Positions 25,355-53,418 of a stretch of DNA of 64,000 bases are shown here, piece after piece. Under the pieces are notes generated by a model, which was given only the letters and a program-made list of their open reading frames with translations, searched no databases and was not told where the DNA came from. How positions within the stretch are numbered: position 1 is the stretch's first letter; the number at the start of each line of letters is the position of its first letter. The position numbers and the translations under genes were made by a program. Where the stretch lies: assembly GCA_965206845.1 (NCBI GenBank), contig OZ242221.1, positions 1,024,001 to 1,088,000 on the forward strand, read 5' to 3'. The DNA comes from Cenarchaeum sp. (GTDB lineage Archaea > Thermoproteota > Nitrososphaeria > Nitrososphaerales > Nitrosopumilaceae).

Positions 25355-25605
25355 ACCAGAACACTGCGTCTTCAGATTTTGATGGATCGGTTTGTGTTTG
25401 GGCGCCATCGGCCTGTGTACCCGGAAAGGATGCGGTTCCTGCGTCCTGTGCATGGATGTCCCCGCACTGGCACCCGTGCCATGCCGGTTTTGCGCTCTGG
25501 ACGAGGCAGCCCATTGGTTAGAGGGCTCACCAATGCGGGCCAAACGCCATAAAATTCATCCCGCCGGGCTCCGGGGAGCCGCCTGCTGGCCGATCCGTAA
25601 AAAAA

Positions 25606-25731
25606 GGGAATTATATACTTCGGTTACAGAACCGTTGCCTTTTTCTGGTGCTCTGTCGATCCCTCCCACTCGTGGCTCTTGCGTGATGTCTGTGGAGCGG
25701 ACTGGGCAGCCCTGTCATGGAATCCCGCGCC
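25606..25731 (-). repeat. Inverted copy of element right end / candidate second omegaRNA scaffold
   Basis: Reverse complement aligns to 27425-27551. Confidence 0.85.
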
Positions 25732-25840
25732 AGGCAGGCGACAAGGATGGCTATGACGGTATGGACAGTCTGCATGGTCTGCATACTAATGACAGTGTTG
25801 CCGCGGCGCTTTTATGCGGTGTGGCATATTGCATGCGGTA

Positions 25841-27715
25841 ATGAAATCAATCGATATGGTGGCAACGGCGCTGGTAACGGTACCGGCGCCAGAAGCGAAA
25901 GCGAAACCGGCAAGGGAGGACACGGTGATCCGCACAATAAAGGTGGACTTTGGCCAGTCCGTGGCGCTGTCAGAGCTCATATCGCGCCTCATTGTGCAGC
26001 AGCGGTGGGCATACAACGTGGCCGTAGAGGAGATGCTGAATGACCCGACAGTAAGCAAATTTGATCTCAACAACAAGCTCACCGCGTGGAGGCAGAAGCA
26101 CGACTGGCTTGACGGCAACGTCTCTGTGCAACGGGCCGGGCTTGCCCAGGGAAGGGATGCCGTGCTGAAGTTTCTGGAATCAAACACTACAAAGCGCGCC
26201 CGCAGGATCATGTGGAAAGACAAATCCAAGAAATATAGAGAAAATAAAACGGAAAAAAATGACAAGAGGCTCAGGGAAGACGGAGATGGCGCCGGCGCAA
26301 ACCTGTCCCTGACCCCATGGAGTGGCAGAAAGAACAGGTGGAGCCACGAAAGCGACCTGTACAGGGCAAGGGGCGACAGGCAGGCGCTGTGTGTGTTTGG
26401 AAAGCCCGTGCAAAAGGACAACAACAGGATCATGCTACCGGGCATCGGCACAGTAGGCGTGCACGGCGAGATGATGGAATGGGACATGCGATCCTTCCAG
26501 CTTGTGGAGACAACCAAAAGGATCACCAGGCGCACCAGGGACCGCGACCGGACATACCGCCTCCACGTCAATGTCCGCATCAGAAAGCCCCGACCGGTGG
26601 AGTGTGATATAGTCCGTGGTGTCGACATGGGGATTGTCCACAACGCGACAACTGTGGACCTTGACACAGGCTACACGGAGTTCCACGACATGCCCAAGGA
26701 CTGCAGGAGGTCAAAGAACGATGAGGTATCGCGGATGCAGGCGGAGCTCTCAAGGAAGCGTGGAGGCAGCGGCAACCGGCGCATCAGGCAGAATGGTAAA
26801 GGCGACTGTCCCGGCAATGCCAGCATCAACGGCGGCACCAATGGGGACGGGAACGGCAGTAACAGCAAGCCGGGCAAATCGGGCAAGCAATGCAAGACCG
26901 TCGGGCCGAACCGCATCAACAGAAAGGCCAAGCGCGACAGGCCAAGGAAGCCCAAATCACGAAGTTACAAGGATCTGCAAAGGAAGATACAAAAAAAGCG
27001 GGAAAAGGTCGCCAACCGCCAGACGAACTGGGAGCGCCACGCGTCAAAGAAGATAGCCGACGGCGCCGGCACGGTGGCCATCGAGGATCTGAATATCAAA
27101 AACATGACGGCCAGGGCCAAAGGCAGTGGAAGCTCCGCCAAGAACGGCCTCAACCGCGAGATGGCATACTCCAGGCCGGGGACGTTCCAAAGGCGGATCG
27201 AGGGCGCATGCGCGAACGCCGGCGTGAAGGTAATCTCCGTTTATCCGGGGGGCACGAGCACCACATGCTACATGTGCGGCCGCAGGGACAAAGGCTCCCG
27301 CGTGTCGCAGGCCGAGTTCATATGCACGAATCACAAATGCGAATGCCACATCAACGCGGACGTCAATGCCGCGTATAACATTGCCGCCAGGGCGGCGGCA
27401 GGGCGGCGGGGAACGTCGTCCAAAGGCGCGAGATTCCAGGCCGGGATTGCTCCCGGACGCTCCGCAAACAACACGCAAGAGCCACGCGTGGGAGGGATCG
27501 CCGGAGCGCCAGAAAAAGGCAACGGTTCTGTAACCGAAGTATATAATTCCCTAAATAGGCTTCAAAACAATAGATCAGCAAGGTGTCCATGGGAGAAGAC
27601 TATCCGGAGTATGGTGAGGAGATCGGGTCCGCAGAGGTGCCAGAGGCAGACCCCTACAATTCCGACGTATTTGCAGAACCGGGACAGGCTCGGCACGATC
27701 CGGATATGGATCTGA
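25841..27715 (+). CDS. tnpB: Large TnpB-like RNA-guided endonuclease (copy 1)
   Basis: RWAYN, RuvC-I RGVDMG, RuvC-II IEDL, CYMC..C...C Zn finger, RuvC-III NADVNAAYNI; reads through the TIR. Confidence 0.88.
   Translation: MKSIDMVATALVTVPAPEAKAKPAREDTVIRTIKVDFGQSVALSELISRLIVQQRWAYNVAVEEMLNDPTVSKFDLNNKLTAWRQKHDWLDGNVSVQRAGLAQGRDAVLKFLESNTTKRARRIMWKDKSKKYRENKTEKNDKRLREDGDGAGANLSLTPWSGRKNRWSHESDLYRARGDRQALCVFGKPVQKDNNRIMLPGIGTVGVHGEMMEWDMRSFQLVETTKRITRRTRDRDRTYRLHVNVRIRKPRPVECDIVRGVDMGIVHNATTVDLDTGYTEFHDMPKDCRRSKNDEVSRMQAELSRKRGGSGNRRIRQNGKGDCPGNASINGGTNGDGNGSNSKPGKSGKQCKTVGPNRINRKAKRDRPRKPKSRSYKDLQRKIQKKREKVANRQTNWERHASKKIADGAGTVAIEDLNIKNMTARAKGSGSSAKNGLNREMAYSRPGTFQRRIEGACANAGVKVISVYPGGTSTTCYMCGRRDKGSRVSQAEFICTNHKCECHINADVNAAYNIAARAAAGRRGTSSKGARFQAGIAPGRSANNTQEPRVGGIAGAPEKGNGSVTEVYNSLNRLQNNRSARCPWEKTIRSMVRRSGPQRCQRQTPTIPTYLQNRDRLGTIRIWI
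27390..27551 (+). ncRNA. Candidate omegaRNA scaffold (copy 1 right end)
   Basis: Conserved among three copies with covarying hairpins; location expected for TnpB guide RNAs; 5' boundary approximate. Confidence 0.6.
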
Positions 27716-29338: not shown

Positions 29339-29500
29339 GGGAATTATATACATGAGTGTACAGTACCCATGCCTTTTGCTGGCGCTCTTGCATTGCCTCC
29401 CACGCTTGGCTCTCGCGTGTTGTTTGCGGAACGCGCGGGAGCAATCCCGCGCTGGCTTCTCGCGCCTTCAGACGACGATCCCCGCCGCCCTGCCGCCAAG
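29339..29500 (-). ncRNA. Candidate omegaRNA scaffold (copy 2 right end)
   Basis: Hairpins GCGCGGGA-TTGC-TCCCGCGC and CATGGGT...ACTCATG abutting TIR; 5' boundary approximate. Confidence 0.6.
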
Positions 29501-31113
29501 GCTTTCGCCTTGGAAGCAATGTTATGCGCCGCGTTTATGTCGGCGTTGACGTCATTGTAACAGTTGTCATTGGTGCAGCGGAACCTGCCCTGCGATGTGC
29601 GGGATTCCTTGTCCTTGCGCCCACAAGCGCTGCATGTTATGCTGGTGCCCTTGGGGTCCACCATAATTACAGTCACTCCGGCGTTCGCGCACGCCTGCCC
29701 GATCTGCTTTTGGAACGTTCCGGGCCGGGAATAGGCCATCTCCCTGTTTAGCCCCGTCTTGGCGGATCTTCCCTTGCCTTTGACCTTGGCGGTCATGTTG
29801 TTTAGGTTGAGATCCTCCATGGCCACGGTTCTGGCGCCATCGGCTATCTTCTTTGACGCGTGCCTTTCCCAGTTGGTCTGGCGGTTGGCTATCTTCTCGC
29901 GCTTCTTGCGGATCTTCCTTTGGAGTTCCTTATAGCTGCGGGACTTTGGCTTCCTTGTCTTGTTTTTGTTGTGGCCTCTGGTGTTGTTGGTGTTGCTGCT
30001 GCTGCCGCTTCTCGTGTTGTTGGTGCTGCTGCTGCCGCCGCTGCCGTTGGTGCCGTTCCCGAAGTCCGCGTCCTTGCTCCCGCCACCAGAGTCTTCATTG
30101 GTGTCCTGCCTGATCCTGCGGTTGCCCCTCCCGCCGCGCTTCTGAGAGAGCTCGGAGTACATCCTGGACAGGTCGTCGTCCTTGGAGCGCCTGCAGTCCT
30201 TTGGGAGGTCGTGAAATTTATGATGGCCGGTGCCGAGGTCTGCCGTGGCGGCGCCGTGGACTATGCCCATGTCCACGCCCCTTACGACCGCGGATTCAGA
30301 CGGCTCCGGGGCCTTGGTTTCGACCTGGATGTGGAGGCGGTACGTCCTGTTATGGTTCTCCGTGCGCTTCGTGGCCCTCTTCGTCGTCTCCACCAATTGG
30401 AATGATCGCATGTCCAATTTCTCCACGTCGCCGCGCACTCTCACGGTGCCGATTCCCGGTAGCATCACCATGTTGTCGCCTTTGTATACTGGCTTCTCAA
30501 ACACCGAGAGTGACCGCTGCTCCCCTTTCCTCTTGAACAGGTCATTGGTGTGGCTCCATTCGTTCCTCTTGTTGCTCCACTTGTTTGACGGCAGGTTTGA
30601 CGCGGTGTAGATGTCGATGTCCGGTATCCCCTCCTTTTCCCGGTCCCGTCTGGCCAGGTGTTTCCACAGGGACTTGTTGCTGCGCTTTTTCCCGTTGGAT
30701 GCCATGAACTTCTTTACGGCGTCCATGCCCAGCAGGAGGCCGGCCCTCTGCACCATGCAGCTGCAGGCCTCATTGCGTCCGGCGGCCCGCGCCTCCTTGT
30801 CATGGACGAGCCACGCCTTTGAGTTTCTCCATTTCGTTAGCATGTTGTTGAGGTCAAACTTGGTTGTCCTCGGGTCTTTCAGCTTCCCGCGCACGGCCAT
30901 GTTGAAGGCCCACCTCTGCTGGTCCATGTGGCGGGATATGAGATCCGACAGCTCCGCCGACTGGTCAAAGTCCACCTTTATGTTGCGGACCATTATGCCT
31001 TCCATTGAGCGTTTTGACCACTTTTTTGGAGCCGGCTCGGTCGCGGCAGCGGTTGCATCTGCTACCGCCGGCTCCGTTGCTGTTATTGCCGTTGCCGTCA
31101 TGATGGGTTTCAT
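29344..31113 (-). CDS. tnpB: Large TnpB-like RNA-guided endonuclease (copy 2)
   Basis: RGVDMG / MEDL / CSAC..C...C / NADINAAHNI; stop codon TAA lies inside the TIR. Confidence 0.9.
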   Translation of the reverse strand: MKPIMTATAITATEPAVADATAAATEPAPKKWSKRSMEGIMVRNIKVDFDQSAELSDLISRHMDQQRWAFNMAVRGKLKDPRTTKFDLNNMLTKWRNSKAWLVHDKEARAAGRNEACSCMVQRAGLLLGMDAVKKFMASNGKKRSNKSLWKHLARRDREKEGIPDIDIYTASNLPSNKWSNKRNEWSHTNDLFKRKGEQRSLSVFEKPVYKGDNMVMLPGIGTVRVRGDVEKLDMRSFQLVETTKRATKRTENHNRTYRLHIQVETKAPEPSESAVVRGVDMGIVHGAATADLGTGHHKFHDLPKDCRRSKDDDLSRMYSELSQKRGGRGNRRIRQDTNEDSGGGSKDADFGNGTNGSGGSSSTNNTRSGSSSNTNNTRGHNKNKTRKPKSRSYKELQRKIRKKREKIANRQTNWERHASKKIADGARTVAMEDLNLNNMTAKVKGKGRSAKTGLNREMAYSRPGTFQKQIGQACANAGVTVIMVDPKGTSITCSACGRKDKESRTSQGRFRCTNDNCYNDVNADINAAHNIASKAKALAAGRRGSSSEGARSQRGIAPARSANNTREPSVGGNARAPAKGMGTVHSCI

Positions 31114-31137
31114 TACCGCATGCAAATGCCAAATATG

Positions 31138-31145
31138 TATAAAAA
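31138..31145 (-). promoter_or_regulatory. TATA box of tnpB copy 2
   Basis: TTTTTATA 24 nt upstream of ATG; equivalent boxes in copies 1 and 3. Confidence 0.6.
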
Positions 31146-31518
31146 CACCGTGGCAATACCATGCAGACCATGCGGACCGTCCGTGCCGTCACGGCCATCA
31201 GGGAGTGGCAGGTTGCAGGCGCCCAGATGGGAGTGGATACTGTGTGGAGAGACCCGAACAAAAACCCTATCCGAGGGCAGCGTATGGCCATGTTTGCCGT
31301 ATATGATTCCCCGCGCCAGGGACGGAAAAACATGAACGGGACAACCCTGCCGGCCATACTAGAGGGGCATTCCGATCTCTTTGACAACAGAAACAGGACA
31401 TATCGCTTGGATCAACAGGCACTGCGGTTTGCATGCAGACGTTCACTCAACTATATAATCCCCTTGAGAAACGGCCCGCCCGCCACAAGTTCATATCCTG
31501 CGTCGGCGTACCCGATCC

Positions 31519-51028: not shown

Positions 51029-51724
51029 GATACACAAAACAAAAAGGCCGTATATACGCTTTATCCAACGAATGGCCCTGTCCAAAAGGGAGGAGTTAGG
51101 CCTCCAGCTCTGCCGGCCCGGCTGCCACCGGAACCGTCAAAGCCGGAGACCCAGCTTCTCCTTTCTGTACAGGGCCGCCAGCATCACGTACAATATAGAT
51201 CTGTCCGTATTGTCCAAATATTGTCTAAGCCGATACGCCTGGGATGGTTTGGTTTGGGAATTATATAGTTAAGTGAACTGCCGGCGCCGCCACACGGCCG
51301 TGGCCTCCCGTCCCGGCCGATCATGCGGTTCGGCAGACCGGTCTTCCCGGTTCCAGACCGGCCGGCGGCTGTCCGGGTTTTTTGACGCCGACCTGCATCC
51401 CGGGGCAGGCAGGAGCCCCGGAAAGCTACGGCTTTGTTGCGCCTTTCATATAGGCAAATGCCGGATCCATACTTGGGATGCAGTCTCAGACCGATCCGGC
51501 ATTGTAAGACGAGAATTGCATTCAAAAGCGGCCAAAACCCGTCCTTTTCGGGCTTTTTGTTCCGAGAGCCGTTCATGCGCGATGCCGGCCCGGCGCCAGT
51601 GAAGGCCTGAAACGCGCCGGCAGGCGCAGCGGAAATGACGGACGTGACAGTGCGGACGGTCCGCACGGCCGGAGCGGCACCGCCATATCTCCTTTTTATA
51701 TTCGGCAGGTATTTGCATGCGGTA

Positions 51725-53413
51725 ATGAAACCCATCATGGCAACCGCAATTGCGACAACGGTAGCGGCAACAGCAACGGCAACCGAGCCGGCACCAAAAA
51801 AGTGGTCAAAGCGCTCAATAGATGGCACCATGATGCGCACCATAAAGGTGGACTTTGATCAGTCGGCCGAGATGTCGGATCTCATATCGCGCCACATGGA
51901 CCAGCAGAGGTGGGCGTTCAACATGGCCGTCAAGGAGAAGCTGAAAGACCCCAGGACGACAAAGTTTGACCTCAACAACATGCTCACAGGATGGAGAAAC
52001 GGAAAGAAGTGGATGAATGGCGGCTTCCTTGCGCAGAGGGCCGGCCTCCTGCTGGGCTTGGACGCGGTAAAGAAGTTTATGGACTCCAACGGCAAAAAGC
52101 GCCGCAACAAGTCATTATGGAAATACCTGGCCAGGCGCCACAGGGAAAGGGAGGGCATCAATGACATCGACATCAACACAGCGCCCAACCTGCCGTCCAA
52201 CAGGTGGAGCAACAAGAGGAACAAATGGACCCACACCAATGACCTGTTCAAGAGGAAGGGGGAGCAGCTGTCCCTCTCGGTGTTCGCGAAGCCGGTGCAT
52301 AAGGGCAACAACATGGTGATGCTCCCCGACATAGGCACCGTAAAAGTGCACGGCGACGTGGAGGGGCTCGACATGCGATCCTTTCAGCTGGTGGAGACGA
52401 CGAAGAGGACCACGAAGCGCACCGAAAGCCACAACAGGACGTACAGACTCCACATCCAGATCAGGACAAAGGCGCCGGAGCCCGCGGAATCCGACACCAT
52501 ACGCGGCATCGACATGGGAATCGTCCACGGCGCCGCCACCGTCGACCTAGATACCGGCCGCCACGCGTTTCATGACCTCCCAAAGGACTGCAGGAGGGCC
52601 AAGGACGACGACCTGTCCAGGATGTACTCCGAGCTCTCACGGAAGCGCGGCGGGAGGGGCAACCGCAGGATCAGGCAGGACACCAAGGAGGGCGCGGACT
52701 GCGGGAACGGAGCCAACGATAAAGATAACGGTAACGGCGGCGGCAACACGAGCGGCAGCATCGGCAATAACAACACGCACGGCCACAAAAAAAACAAGCC
52801 GAGGAAACCAAAGTCAAGAAGCTACAAGGAACTCCAAAGGAAGATCAGGAAAAAGAGGGAAAAGCTTGCCAACCGCCAGACGAACTGGGAAAGGCACGCG
52901 TCAAAGAAGATAGCCGATGGCGCTGGCACAGTGGTCATGGAGGACTTGGACCTCGTGAACATGACTGCAAGGGCCAAGGGAAAGGGCAGCTCCGCCAAGA
53001 CCGGGCTCAACCGCGAGATGGCCTATTCCCGGCCCGGCACGTTCCAGCGCCAGATCGGGCAGGCGTGCGCGAACGCCGGGGTGACCGTCATAATGGTGGA
53101 TCCCAAGGGCACGAGCATCACATGCCACCAGTGCGGCCGCGAGGACGGGAACTCCCGCGTGTCGCAGGGCAGATTCAAATGCGCCAATGACAACTGTTAC
53201 AATGACGTCAACGCGGACATCAATGCCGCGTATAATATTGCCTCCAAGGCGAAAGCCGTGGCGGCAGGGCGGCGGGGATCGTCGTCTGAAGGCGCGAGAA
53301 GCCAGCGCGGGATTGCTCCCGCGCGTTCCGCAAACAGCACGCGAGAGCCAAGCGTGGGAGGCAATGCAAGAGCGCCAGCAAAAGACATGGGTGCTGTACA
53401 CTCATGTATATAA
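51725..53413 (+). CDS. tnpB: Large TnpB-like RNA-guided endonuclease (copy 3)
   Basis: RGIDMG / MEDL / CHQC..C...C / NADINAAYNI; TTTTTATA 24 nt upstream; stop in TIR. Confidence 0.9.
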   Translation: MKPIMATAIATTVAATATATEPAPKKWSKRSIDGTMMRTIKVDFDQSAEMSDLISRHMDQQRWAFNMAVKEKLKDPRTTKFDLNNMLTGWRNGKKWMNGGFLAQRAGLLLGLDAVKKFMDSNGKKRRNKSLWKYLARRHREREGINDIDINTAPNLPSNRWSNKRNKWTHTNDLFKRKGEQLSLSVFAKPVHKGNNMVMLPDIGTVKVHGDVEGLDMRSFQLVETTKRTTKRTESHNRTYRLHIQIRTKAPEPAESDTIRGIDMGIVHGAATVDLDTGRHAFHDLPKDCRRAKDDDLSRMYSELSRKRGGRGNRRIRQDTKEGADCGNGANDKDNGNGGGNTSGSIGNNNTHGHKKNKPRKPKSRSYKELQRKIRKKREKLANRQTNWERHASKKIADGAGTVVMEDLDLVNMTARAKGKGSSAKTGLNREMAYSRPGTFQRQIGQACANAGVTVIMVDPKGTSITCHQCGREDGNSRVSQGRFKCANDNCYNDVNADINAAYNIASKAKAVAAGRRGSSSEGARSQRGIAPARSANSTREPSVGGNARAPAKDMGAVHSCI

Positions 53414-53418
53414 TTCCC
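53258..53418 (+). ncRNA. Candidate omegaRNA scaffold (copy 3 right end)
   Basis: Near-identical to copy 2 tail; terminal hairpin ACATGGGTG-CTGTA-CACTCATGT; 5' boundary approximate. Confidence 0.6.

What the first reader, a model, noticed from the sequence alone, without database searches (positions are those of the whole stretch)
25606..27551. Copy 1 has two outward-facing copies of the putative guide-RNA scaffold (126-bp inverted repeat)
Seen: 25606-25731 is the reverse complement of 27425-27551 (first 43 bp perfect, then diverged). The left end is therefore a right end in inverted orientation, replacing the left end used in copies 2 and 3. The diverged part can still fold a hairpin at the same place (GACAGGG-CTG-CCCAGTC vs CCGGGA-TTGC-TCCCGG). 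Inference: one TnpB could be loaded with two guides, one from each flank (right TAAATAGGCTTCAAAACAAT; left TTTTTTTACGGATCGGCCAG), targeting both strands of an empty site. Caveat: the left guide starts with oligo-U, which may terminate archaeal transcription.
Basis: partly seen in the sequence, partly recalled or inferred. Interest (0 to 1): 0.8.

Follow-up and report, generated by a model that had tools for sequence, protein, structure and literature searches.

The report
Decaying inverted guide-RNA scaffold in transposon end
The 126-bp inverted repeat is real, but it is an over-long terminal inverted repeat of a cut-and-paste-type transposon that carries the RNA-guided nuclease gene tnpB, and in this copy the extra left-hand guide-RNA scaffold is decaying rather than serving as a second guide.

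Summary
The repeat exists as described: 43 bp are perfect, 95 nt match at 93% and 128 nt at 87%.

- **What the element is.** It is not an IS200/IS605-type element. All 15 full copies in this 1.65-Mb archaeal genome start with the inverted right-end tip GGGAATTATATA. 10 of 15 have perfect 8-bp target-site duplications.
- **Likely transposase.** A related genome holds elements with the same tip and 8-bp duplications that encode an IS1595-family DDE transposase. The copies here are therefore TnpB cargo in non-autonomous IS1595-type shells, a kind already reported.
- **Copy 1's left arm.** Copy 1 extends its terminal repeat over most of the guide-RNA scaffold, but the inner part decays. 11 of 69 positions invariant in 16 true right ends are changed, four extra pairs are broken, and it scores 86 bits against 166-183. 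Its would-be guide starts with T7. No RNA contig covered it, which is uninformative.
- **Recurrence.** The architecture recurs in this genome. One other full element has an intact left scaffold (134 bits, 2 of 69 changed), and a 369-bp derivative has two outward scaffolds.

The dual-guide idea is improbable for copy 1 and remains open for the other element.

The parts
25598..25605 (.). Left flank octamer TAAAAAAA, a degenerate target-site duplication (5 of 8 match the right octamer). The base before it (25597) is G, as in all 15 copies.
25606..25648 (+). Left terminal inverted repeat, 43 nt identical to the inverted right tip. It starts with the family tip GGGAATTATATAC and contains the terminal hairpin.
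25606..25731 (-). Left arm: an outward-facing, degenerate inverted copy of the omega-RNA scaffold. It scores 85.8 bits with model R1 and lacks the 5' stem that lies inside the tnpB coding region in true right ends.
25732..25840 (+). Left-end internal region, shared with other copies and most similar to the element at genome 1188043-1189924. It contains the conserved box GCGCTTTTATGCGG (25806-25819), inferred to be an archaeal TATA box about 25-30 nt upstream of the conserved ATGAAA at 25841.
   Evidence: promoter role is inference
25841..27715 (+). tnpB open frame. It matches Pfam Cas12f1-like_TNB and OrfB_IS605, and the RuvC D/E/D motifs GVDMG, AIEDL and NADVNAA are present. The start codon is uncertain: ATG 25841, ATG 25856 or GTG 25925. 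The frame runs past the element end, whereas most copies stop at a TAA inside the tip.
27402..27551 (+). Right-end omega-RNA scaffold, 167.2 bits with R1. The structure has 35 pairs, 8 of them with compensatory changes across the 16 copies.
27509..27551 (+). Right terminal inverted repeat, ending in GTATATAATTCCC.
27552..27571 (+). Flank that the right-end guide would copy (TAAATAGGCTTCAAAACAAT). Its first 8 nt correspond to the degenerate duplication. One RNA-library contig spans 27493-27667.
29339..31463 (-). Copy 2: same family, short TIR of about 25 nt, perfect 8-bp duplication TTTCTCAA.
51256..53418 (+). Copy 3: same family, left tip GGGAATTATATAG, no matching duplication (1 of 8).

Best explanation
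Copy 1 (25606-27551) is an old, non-autonomous IS1595-type transposon. It has terminal inverted repeats and an 8-bp target duplication, and its only cargo is tnpB with its omega-RNA. In this family the last ~13-45 nt of the omega-RNA scaffold double as the right terminal inverted repeat. Every left end must therefore carry the inverted tip of the scaffold. In one sub-lineage the left repeat was extended to include almost the whole scaffold. The likely cause is an inverted duplication or a gene conversion from a right end. That sub-lineage includes copy 1, the element at genome 1188043-1189924, the 369-bp derivative at 1178387-1178755 and, in eroded form, five further left ends. In copy 1 only the outer 43 bp, presumed to be the transposase-binding repeat, are kept identical to the right end. 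The inner ~83 bp drift neutrally. Copy 1 therefore most likely makes one guide RNA, from its right end, and its left arm is a decaying relic rather than a second guide scaffold. Shown: the repeat, TIRs and duplications in all copies, the IS1595 partner with the same tip, the covariation-supported scaffold, and the decay of the copy-1 arm. Inferred: the origin by duplication or conversion, the transposase binding site, trans-mobilisation, and the lack of a left RNA.
For: The family has TIRs and TSDs. 15 of 15 full copies have the left tip GGGAATTATATA(C/G). The 8-bp duplication is perfect in 10 of 15 copies, matches 7/8 in two, 6/8 in one, 5/8 in copy 1 and 1/8 in copy 3. Related genomes hold 1426-1574-bp tnpB-only elements with the same tip and perfect 8-bp duplications; 10 distinct elements were found in the 34 loci scanned. 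There is no Y1 TnpA and no serine recombinase in this complete genome. Two elements of 2690 and 2837 bp in genome G099 share the 13-nt tip and have perfect 8-bp duplications. Both hold a homologous transposase ORF of 319-320 aa; the one scanned (2690-bp element) matches DDE_Tnp_IS1595 at E 2.9e-40. This genome has one intact IS1595-type ORF and one broken one that ends in the family tip. The copy-1 arm is decaying: 85.8 bits against 166-183, 11 of 69 invariant columns changed, 7 of 29 pairs broken, 18 differences from its own right end of which 11 lie on invariant columns (9.7 expected at random), and MFE -29.5 against -41.4 kcal/mol. The left flank starts with T7. There is a gradient of left-end similarity to the scaffold: two long arms (128-130 nt), five intermediate (CM 22.7-45.2 bits) and the rest short. 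The left-end internal regions of copy 1 and the 1188k element are closest relatives and lose right-end homology at the same point.
Against: The second full element has a left scaffold as good as a true right end (134.3 bits, 2 of 69 invariant columns changed, 1 of 29 pairs broken). Its differences from the nearest right ends avoid invariant columns (P=0.019). That fits either constraint or a very recent conversion. In copy 1's arm the diverged hairpin shows two compensated pairs (C-G to A-U, A-U to G-C) beside one broken pair. Both long-arm elements have C just after the right duplication, which would give a G before the left guide's target, like the G seen before right-guide targets. With only 2 of 2 cases against a 7/25 background, this is weak. 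No strand-specific RNA data were available, so absence of a left RNA is not shown. The two long arms are only 67% alike, so a single origin requires later conversions.
Confidence: 0.7

Rival explanations
1. Dual-guide element. The left arm is transcribed outward on the minus strand and gives a second omega-RNA whose guide copies the left flank. TnpB could then cut the empty site on either strand.
For: The architecture recurs: 2 of 15 full elements plus one 369-bp derivative. The 1188k left arm keeps all stems P2-P5 and 67 of 69 invariant positions, and its flank has no T-run. The base before right-guide targets is G in 24 of 25 elements, against 7 of 25 on the other side. Both long-arm elements have that G on the left-guide side as well.
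Against: The copy-1 arm is degraded and its guide would start with seven U, a likely archaeal terminator (established knowledge, not tested here). The arms lack the 5' stem, which shows covariation in true right ends (pair 7-13 has 9 of 16 sequences changed on both sides). No promoter for the minus strand was identified. No outward-facing pairs were seen among 9, 15 and 7 scaffold hits in genomes G064, G099 and G226. Most long or intermediate arms are decaying, which argues against sustained selection.
Confidence: 0.07
2. The long left arm works at the DNA or antisense level. It could provide extra transposase or TnpB-RNP binding sites, or an inward transcript complementary to the omega-RNA that damps TnpB activity.
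For: The tip contains a TATA-like TTATATA, and the inverted arm is complementary to the scaffold over 128 nt. The outer 43-59 nt are kept identical to the element's own right end in both long-arm elements.
Against: The inverted arm has a T5 run about 35-40 nt from the tip that would stop inward transcripts. The conserved TATA-like box for tnpB lies downstream of the arm, so the arm is probably not in the tnpB mRNA (inference). The inner part of the copy-1 arm drifts neutrally. Related active-looking elements manage with 13-35-nt repeats.
Confidence: 0.1
3. Composite or nested origin. The left arm is the solo right-end remnant of a second, oppositely oriented element into or beside which copy 1 landed. 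The transposase then used that tip as the new left end.
For: Solo and degenerate scaffolds and nested tips exist in the genome, at 1307663-1307807, 1583621-1583763, 1577663-1577810 and 1008018/1008048. The 1188k left arm is closest to the right ends of other elements (91% to e871k/e748k) rather than to its own (84%).
Against: Copy 1's arm is closest to its own right end (86% against at most 77% to any other). Both long-arm elements lose homology at the same scaffold position and share a sister left-end internal region. That fits one ancestral event plus later conversion better than two independent nestings. No tnpB remnant of a second element adjoins the arm.
Confidence: 0.1
4. Assembly artefact, such as a chimeric join in a repeat.
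For: Repeats fragment short-read assemblies; the contigs of run X3 are fragmented here.
Against: A contig of another study's run spans 25671-25793 with 0 differences. All 30 bins have depth in that run, and contigs diverge at 25603/25604, the predicted element boundary. The same architecture is present at a second locus.
Confidence: 0.01

Closest known systems
DDE-transposase-associated TnpB branches (DDE-1 to DDE-6) of Altae-Tran et al. 2023, PNAS, PMC10691335 (section 9 read in full; other passages by term search)
   Same: tnpB sits inside transposons with inverted terminal repeats. The tnpB 3' end lies close to a transposon end. Solo tnpB copies have ends like those of transposase-bearing elements and are proposed to be mobilised in trans.
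   Different: The text I could read names only IS630 for branch DDE-6. Whether an IS1595-type branch is among the six is in supplements I could not open. An inverted repeat extended over the whole omega-RNA scaffold, giving two outward-facing scaffolds, is not mentioned in the passages read.
IS1595-family insertion sequences (Pfam DDE_Tnp_IS1595 / ISXO2-like; the 8-bp duplication as a family trait is recalled from ISfinder, not from a call)
   Same: The 13-nt tip and 8-bp duplications match those of two IS1595-transposase elements in genome G099.
   Different: The copies here carry no transposase. Their cargo is tnpB with its guide-RNA scaffold, and the scaffold overlaps the right repeat.
IS200/IS605 family, IS1341-type tnpB-only elements
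   Same: They have a TnpB nuclease with a RuvC triad, and a structured RNA overlapping the tnpB 3' end that abuts the flank it uses as guide.
   Different: IS605-type elements lack inverted terminal repeats and target duplications (stated in PMC3119063 and PMC6188088, passages and abstract). Here both are present, and no Y1 TnpA exists in the genome.
Fanzor elements in eukaryotic TIR transposons (PMC10530073, passages read)
   Same: The guide RNA overlaps the right terminal inverted repeat of a TIR transposon.
   Different: Those are eukaryotic or viral, and no second outward-facing scaffold at the left end is described in the passages read.
Long-TIR / foldback derivatives and MITEs of cut-and-paste transposons (general knowledge, recalled)
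   Same: They show extension of terminal repeats by copying one end onto the other, and short internally deleted derivatives such as the 369-bp element.
   Different: Here the duplicated end encodes a guide-RNA scaffold, so the duplication could in principle create a second guide.

Membership tests
IS200/IS605 (IS1341-type tnpB-only element) | No terminal inverted repeats; asymmetric subterminal hairpins | tested here: not met
   15 of 15 copies have inverted tips of 12-130 nt.
IS200/IS605 (IS1341-type tnpB-only element) | No target-site duplication; insertion 3' of a fixed 4-6-nt motif | tested here: not met
   Perfect 8-bp duplications of varied sequence in 10 of 15 copies and in 10 related elements.
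IS200/IS605 (IS1341-type tnpB-only element) | Y1 HUH transposase TnpA available (in cis or trans) | tested here: not met
   PF01797 gave 0 matches in this 99.99%-complete genome, while the control genomes gave matches. PF00239 (IS607-type) also gave 0.
IS1595-family transposon (non-autonomous derivative) | Terminal inverted repeats shared with elements encoding a DDE_Tnp_IS1595 transposase | tested here: met
   G099 elements of 2690 and 2837 bp share the tip GGGAATTATATAC. The transposase ORF of the 2690-bp element matched PF12762 at E 2.9e-40; the 2837-bp element holds a homologous 320-aa ORF that was not scanned. A broken IS1595 ORF in this genome ends in the same tip.
IS1595-family transposon (non-autonomous derivative) | 8-bp target-site duplication | tested here: met
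IS1595-family transposon (non-autonomous derivative) | Mobilisation by the IS1595 transposase | not testable with these tools
   Needs a transposition assay. No two copies in this genome exceed 86% identity in the core, so there is no sign of recent movement here.
TnpB / omega-RNA (OMEGA) system | TnpB with intact RuvC D-E-D triad and zinc finger | tested here: met
   Pfam PF07282 and PF01385 match. The sequence aligns to solved Cas12f/TnpB chains across NADVNAA. D234, E387 and D479 are invariant in 10 sequences.
TnpB / omega-RNA (OMEGA) system | Conserved structured RNA overlapping the tnpB 3' end and ending at the element boundary | tested here: met
   16 right ends with 88% mean column identity and 35 pairs, 8 with compensatory changes. 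No Rfam family matches.
TnpB / omega-RNA (OMEGA) system | The RNA is expressed and guides cleavage next to a TAM | tested here: inconclusive
   One RNA-library contig spans the right boundary (27493-27667), but contigs cannot show strand or ends. G at -1 in 24 of 25 elements is TAM-like. No biochemical test was possible.
Dual-guide (two omega-RNAs per element) architecture - hypothetical, no known family | Left scaffold structurally intact | tested here: not met
   Copy 1 scores 85.8 bits, with 11 of 69 invariant positions changed. The feature is met only in the element at genome 1188043-1189924 (134.3 bits, 2 of 69).
Dual-guide (two omega-RNAs per element) architecture - hypothetical, no known family | Left scaffold transcribed outward with a usable guide | not testable with these tools
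   No strand-specific reads were available. The copy-1 flank begins with T7.

The most novel reading that the evidence does not exclude
In this archaeal lineage, some IS1595-borne tnpB elements have become symmetric. Both ends would carry a working omega-RNA scaffold, as at genome 1188043-1189924. One TnpB would then be programmed with two guides that read the two flanks and overlap on the 8-bp duplication. That would double the chance that a TAM (G at -1) lies next to the empty site. It would answer the TAM problem that a DDE transposase, unlike TnpA, does not solve. Copy 1 would be a decayed descendant of such an element.
Probability: 0.12. Interest if true: 0.75.

Novelty: new variant of a known kind. 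Interest (0 to 1): 0.4.

Why it matters
TnpB is the ancestor of Cas12, and how it serves transposons other than IS605/IS607 is little studied. This genome gives a clean natural series. There are 15 tnpB-only elements in IS1595-type shells, the guide-RNA scaffold doubles as the transposase's terminal repeat, and each guide begins with the element's own target duplication. A strong, orientation-specific G before the duplication (24 of 25) suggests that TnpB targeting has shaped which insertions persist. The long inverted repeat shows that such symmetric ends can duplicate a whole guide scaffold. If the intact example is expressed, it would be the first two-guide TnpB element. If it is not, the series documents how such duplications arise and decay. 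For copy 1 itself the answer is ordinary: a relic.

Tried and rejected
- **RNA evidence.** Three RNA or RNA-like runs gave contigs only over parts of tnpB and one across the right tip. None covered 25474-25821. This is uninformative, because the data are contigs with no strand information.
- **Rfam.** There is no family for the scaffold; the only matches in the window were one SRP RNA and two tRNAs.
- **Survey of other genomes for double scaffolds.** Model R1 matched only 5 of 101 family genomes and 3 of 151 order genomes, this genome included. No outward-facing pairs were found among the 9, 15 and 7 hits in G064, G099 and G226.
- **Junction pattern in genome contigs.** It gave 4 chance hits in bacteria.
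- **Scaffold pattern in viral contigs.** It gave 0 hits.
- **TnpB alignment against metagenome contigs.** The 80 loci were all distant (26-63% identity over their best segments, mostly the C-terminal part), and none had an R1 match.
- **Empty-site search in the one same-genus genome.** The two flanks lie on different contigs, so it gave no information.
- **Promoter for the omega-RNA inside tnpB.** The only A/T-rich box is the A-(H/Y)-N-I-A codons, with variable spacing to the scaffold, so it is not convincing.
- **Single-sequence folding z-scores.** They were weak for all scaffolds (-0.66 to -1.72), so only the 12 kcal/mol loss in the copy-1 arm is used.
- **Unique compensated pair in the 1188k arm.** I first took AACGC/GCGTT as proof of selection. 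I rejected this because the e755k right end has the same pair.
- **Literature.** Searches found no description of two outward-facing omega-RNA scaffolds or of IS1595-tnpB elements. The supplements of PMC10691335, which may list the DDE families, were closed.
Full report
**Observation.** The inverted repeat is real.
- The repeat finder gives arms 25605-25699 and 27458-27552, 95 nt at 93% complementarity.
- BLAST extends the match to 128 nt at 86.7% (25605-25731 against 27552-27425).
- The outer 43 nt are identical.
- The 34-nt tip occurs exactly twice in the window, against none in 100 shuffles.
- The quoted flanks are correct.
- A contig from a run of another study bridges the inner junction (25671-25793, no differences). 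Contigs there also diverge at 25603/25604, the predicted element boundary, so this is not an assembly artefact.

**What the element is.** The window lies in a complete 1.65-Mb archaeal genome with 57% G+C.
- The ORF between the arms is a TnpB. It matches Pfam Cas12f1-like_TNB and OrfB_IS605 and has the motifs GVDMG, AIEDL and NADVNAA. The D, E and D residues are invariant in 10 aligned relatives.
- The genome holds 15 full or near-full copies plus fragments. The 128-nt right end gives 23 BLAST matches.
- The copies are old and diverse, with 66-86% identity in the tnpB core.

**It is not an IS200/IS605-type element.**
- All 15 copies begin with GGGAATTATATA(C/G), the inverse of the right tip GTATATAATTCCC.
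- 10 of 15 are flanked by perfect 8-bp direct repeats of varied, A/T-rich sequence. Two more match 7/8 and one 6/8. Copy 1 matches 5/8 and copy 3 matches 1/8.
- The genome has no Y1 TnpA and no serine recombinase.
- In a sister genus, related tnpB-only elements of 1426-1574 bp share the tip and have perfect 8-bp duplications. Ten distinct elements were found in the 34 loci scanned.

**The likely transposase.** In genome G099, two larger elements (2690 and 2837 bp) have the same 13-nt tip and perfect 8-bp duplications.
- Both hold a homologous transposase ORF of 319-320 aa; the 319-aa ORF of the 2690-bp element matches DDE_Tnp_IS1595 at E 2.9e-40. They also carry methylase-type cargo; the 454-aa ORF of the 2837-bp element matches N6_N4_Mtase and HNH.
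- This genome has one intact IS1595-type transposase ORF without clear tips (genome 27542-28444). It also has a broken one that ends in the family tip.
- The copies are therefore tnpB cargo in non-autonomous IS1595-type shells, presumably moved in trans.
- Altae-Tran et al. 2023 (PMC10691335, section 9 read) report DDE-associated TnpB branches with inverted terminal repeats and solo TnpBs mobilised in trans.

**The guide-RNA scaffold.**
- The 150 nt ending at the right tip are the most conserved part of the elements, with 88% mean column identity and 84 invariant columns among 16 right ends.
- RNAalifold gives 35 pairs, 8 of them with compensatory changes.
- In most copies the tnpB frame runs through the whole scaffold and stops at the TAA inside the tip.
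- The end of the scaffold is thus also the transposase's terminal repeat, and the guide begins with the element's own 8-bp duplication. The guide therefore matches an empty site over its full length, but an occupied site over only 8 nt. This is inference from the anatomy.

**The left arm of copy 1.** A covariance model built from the 16 right ends scores them at 166-183 bits. The copy-1 left arm scores 85.8 bits.
- From the column where the arms begin, 11 of 69 positions invariant in all right ends are changed. True right ends show 0-3 changed in leave-one-out tests.
- 7 of 29 pairs are broken, 3 of them shared with copy 1's own right end.
- Of its 18 differences from its own right end, 11 fall on invariant columns, against 9.7 expected by chance. 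The inner part is therefore drifting neutrally.
- Its predicted folding energy is -29.5 kcal/mol against -41.4 for its own right end.
- It lacks the 5' stem, which shows covariation in true right ends.
Two other stems each have a broken pair.
- The flank that would serve as guide starts with T7.
- RNA-library contigs did not cover the arm, which proves nothing.

**Recurrence.** The architecture is not unique.
- The element at genome 1188043-1189924 has a 130-nt inverted right end at its left end. It has a perfect duplication CGTAACCG and an open tnpB frame of 564 aa.
- That arm scores 134.3 bits, keeps stems P2-P5, and has 2 of 69 invariant positions changed and 1 of 29 pairs broken. Its differences from the nearest right ends avoid invariant columns (P=0.019).
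- A 369-bp element at 1178387-1178755 has outward scaffolds at both ends, scoring 134 and 54 bits, and looks like an internally deleted derivative.
- Five further left ends are homologous to the inverted scaffold over about 50-80 nt (22.7-45.2 bits). The remaining left ends share only about 12-30 nt.
- None of the 31 scaffold hits in three other genomes form outward pairs.

**History.**
- The left-end internal regions of copy 1 and the 1188k element are each other's closest relatives. They lose right-end homology at the same point. In the tnpB tree both belong to one well-supported clade with e1332k, e770k and e129k, though they are not sisters.
- The arms themselves are only 67% alike. Copy 1's arm is closest to its own right end (86%; outer 55/58, inner 55/70). 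The 1188k arm is closest to the right ends of e871k and e748k (91%), while its outer 59 nt match its own right end 58/59.
- The simplest account is one ancestral extension of the left repeat, followed by gene conversion from right ends, especially of the outer part, and decay in between. This is inference.

**Mechanism and odds.**
- I put about 0.7 on copy 1 being a one-guide element with a relic left arm.
- I put about 0.07 on a working second guide in copy 1.
- I put about 0.1 on a DNA-level or antisense role.
- I put about 0.1 on a nested or composite origin, which would not change the functional reading.
- For the family as a whole, I put about 0.12 on a working two-guide form, with the 1188k element as the example.

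**Side observation bearing on function.** The base just before the left duplication is G in 24 of 25 elements. The equivalent base on the other strand is G in 7 of 25 (binomial P 1.5e-12; Fisher P 8e-7). A symmetric DDE transposase should not produce such an orientation-specific bias. It looks like a TAM requirement of TnpB acting on which insertions persist. Both long-arm elements happen to have the G on both sides, but 2 of 2 is weak.

**Literature.** I read passages of PMC3119063, section 9 plus other passages of PMC10691335, and passages of PMC10530073. The other papers were seen only as search listings. None describes two outward-facing scaffolds. Closed supplements of PMC10691335 may bear on whether IS1595-type tnpB elements are already catalogued.

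Noticed in passing
left flanks of all 15 elements in the genome (e.g. window 25597, 31472, 51247) and 10 elements in G064/G099: The base immediately 5' of the left target duplication is G in 24 of 25 elements. The equivalent base on the opposite strand is G in 7 of 25. This orientation-specific, TAM-like bias is unexpected for a DDE transposase alone.
   Followed up: partly
window 26246-26252 (A7 run in copy-1 tnpB): Contigs of all three RNA or RNA-like runs (two studies) carry one extra A after 26252, which would shift the tnpB frame. The high-depth contig of run X3 agrees with the window. This could be a strain difference, a homopolymer error or transcript slippage.
   Followed up: no
genome G000:C1:1178387-1178755 (outside the window): A 369-bp MITE-like element made of two outward-facing scaffolds (134 and 54 bits) with a remnant of the tnpB 3' end and no clear duplication.
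   Followed up: partly
genome G000:C1:755089-755238 and 872566-872715: Right-end scaffolds score as well as the others (169.5 and 174.1 bits) although their tnpB is truncated or broken. Scaffolds may therefore be maintained independently of their own tnpB, by trans use or by conversion.
   Followed up: no
genome G000:C1:27542-28444 and 1466759-1467226: There is one intact IS1595-type transposase ORF (313 aa open, 60% identical to G099's) without recognisable family tips. There is also one broken copy (2 TAA stops) that ends in the family tip.
   Followed up: partly
genome G000:C1:938659-939364 and 1008018-1008060: A 706-bp element with matching 20-nt tips holds a tnpB fragment and unrelated sequence. 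Elsewhere two left tips are nested 30 nt apart.
   Followed up: no
window 27552-27715: In copy 1, and in 3 other copies, a 1-nt indel in the terminal hairpin removes the usual TAA stop inside the tip. The tnpB frame then reads out of the element into flanking DNA.
   Followed up: partly
window 40403, 55757 and 31311: Isolated right-tip-like 12-mers with one mismatch and no adjacent scaffold. They are probably chance matches or very old remnants.
   Followed up: no
G099:C1:1770047-1772736 and 1043578-1046414: IS1595-type elements carrying N6/N4 DNA methylase-type cargo as well as the transposase; the methylase ORF scanned (2837-bp element) also has an HNH domain. The same shell is therefore used for different cargos.
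   Followed up: partly
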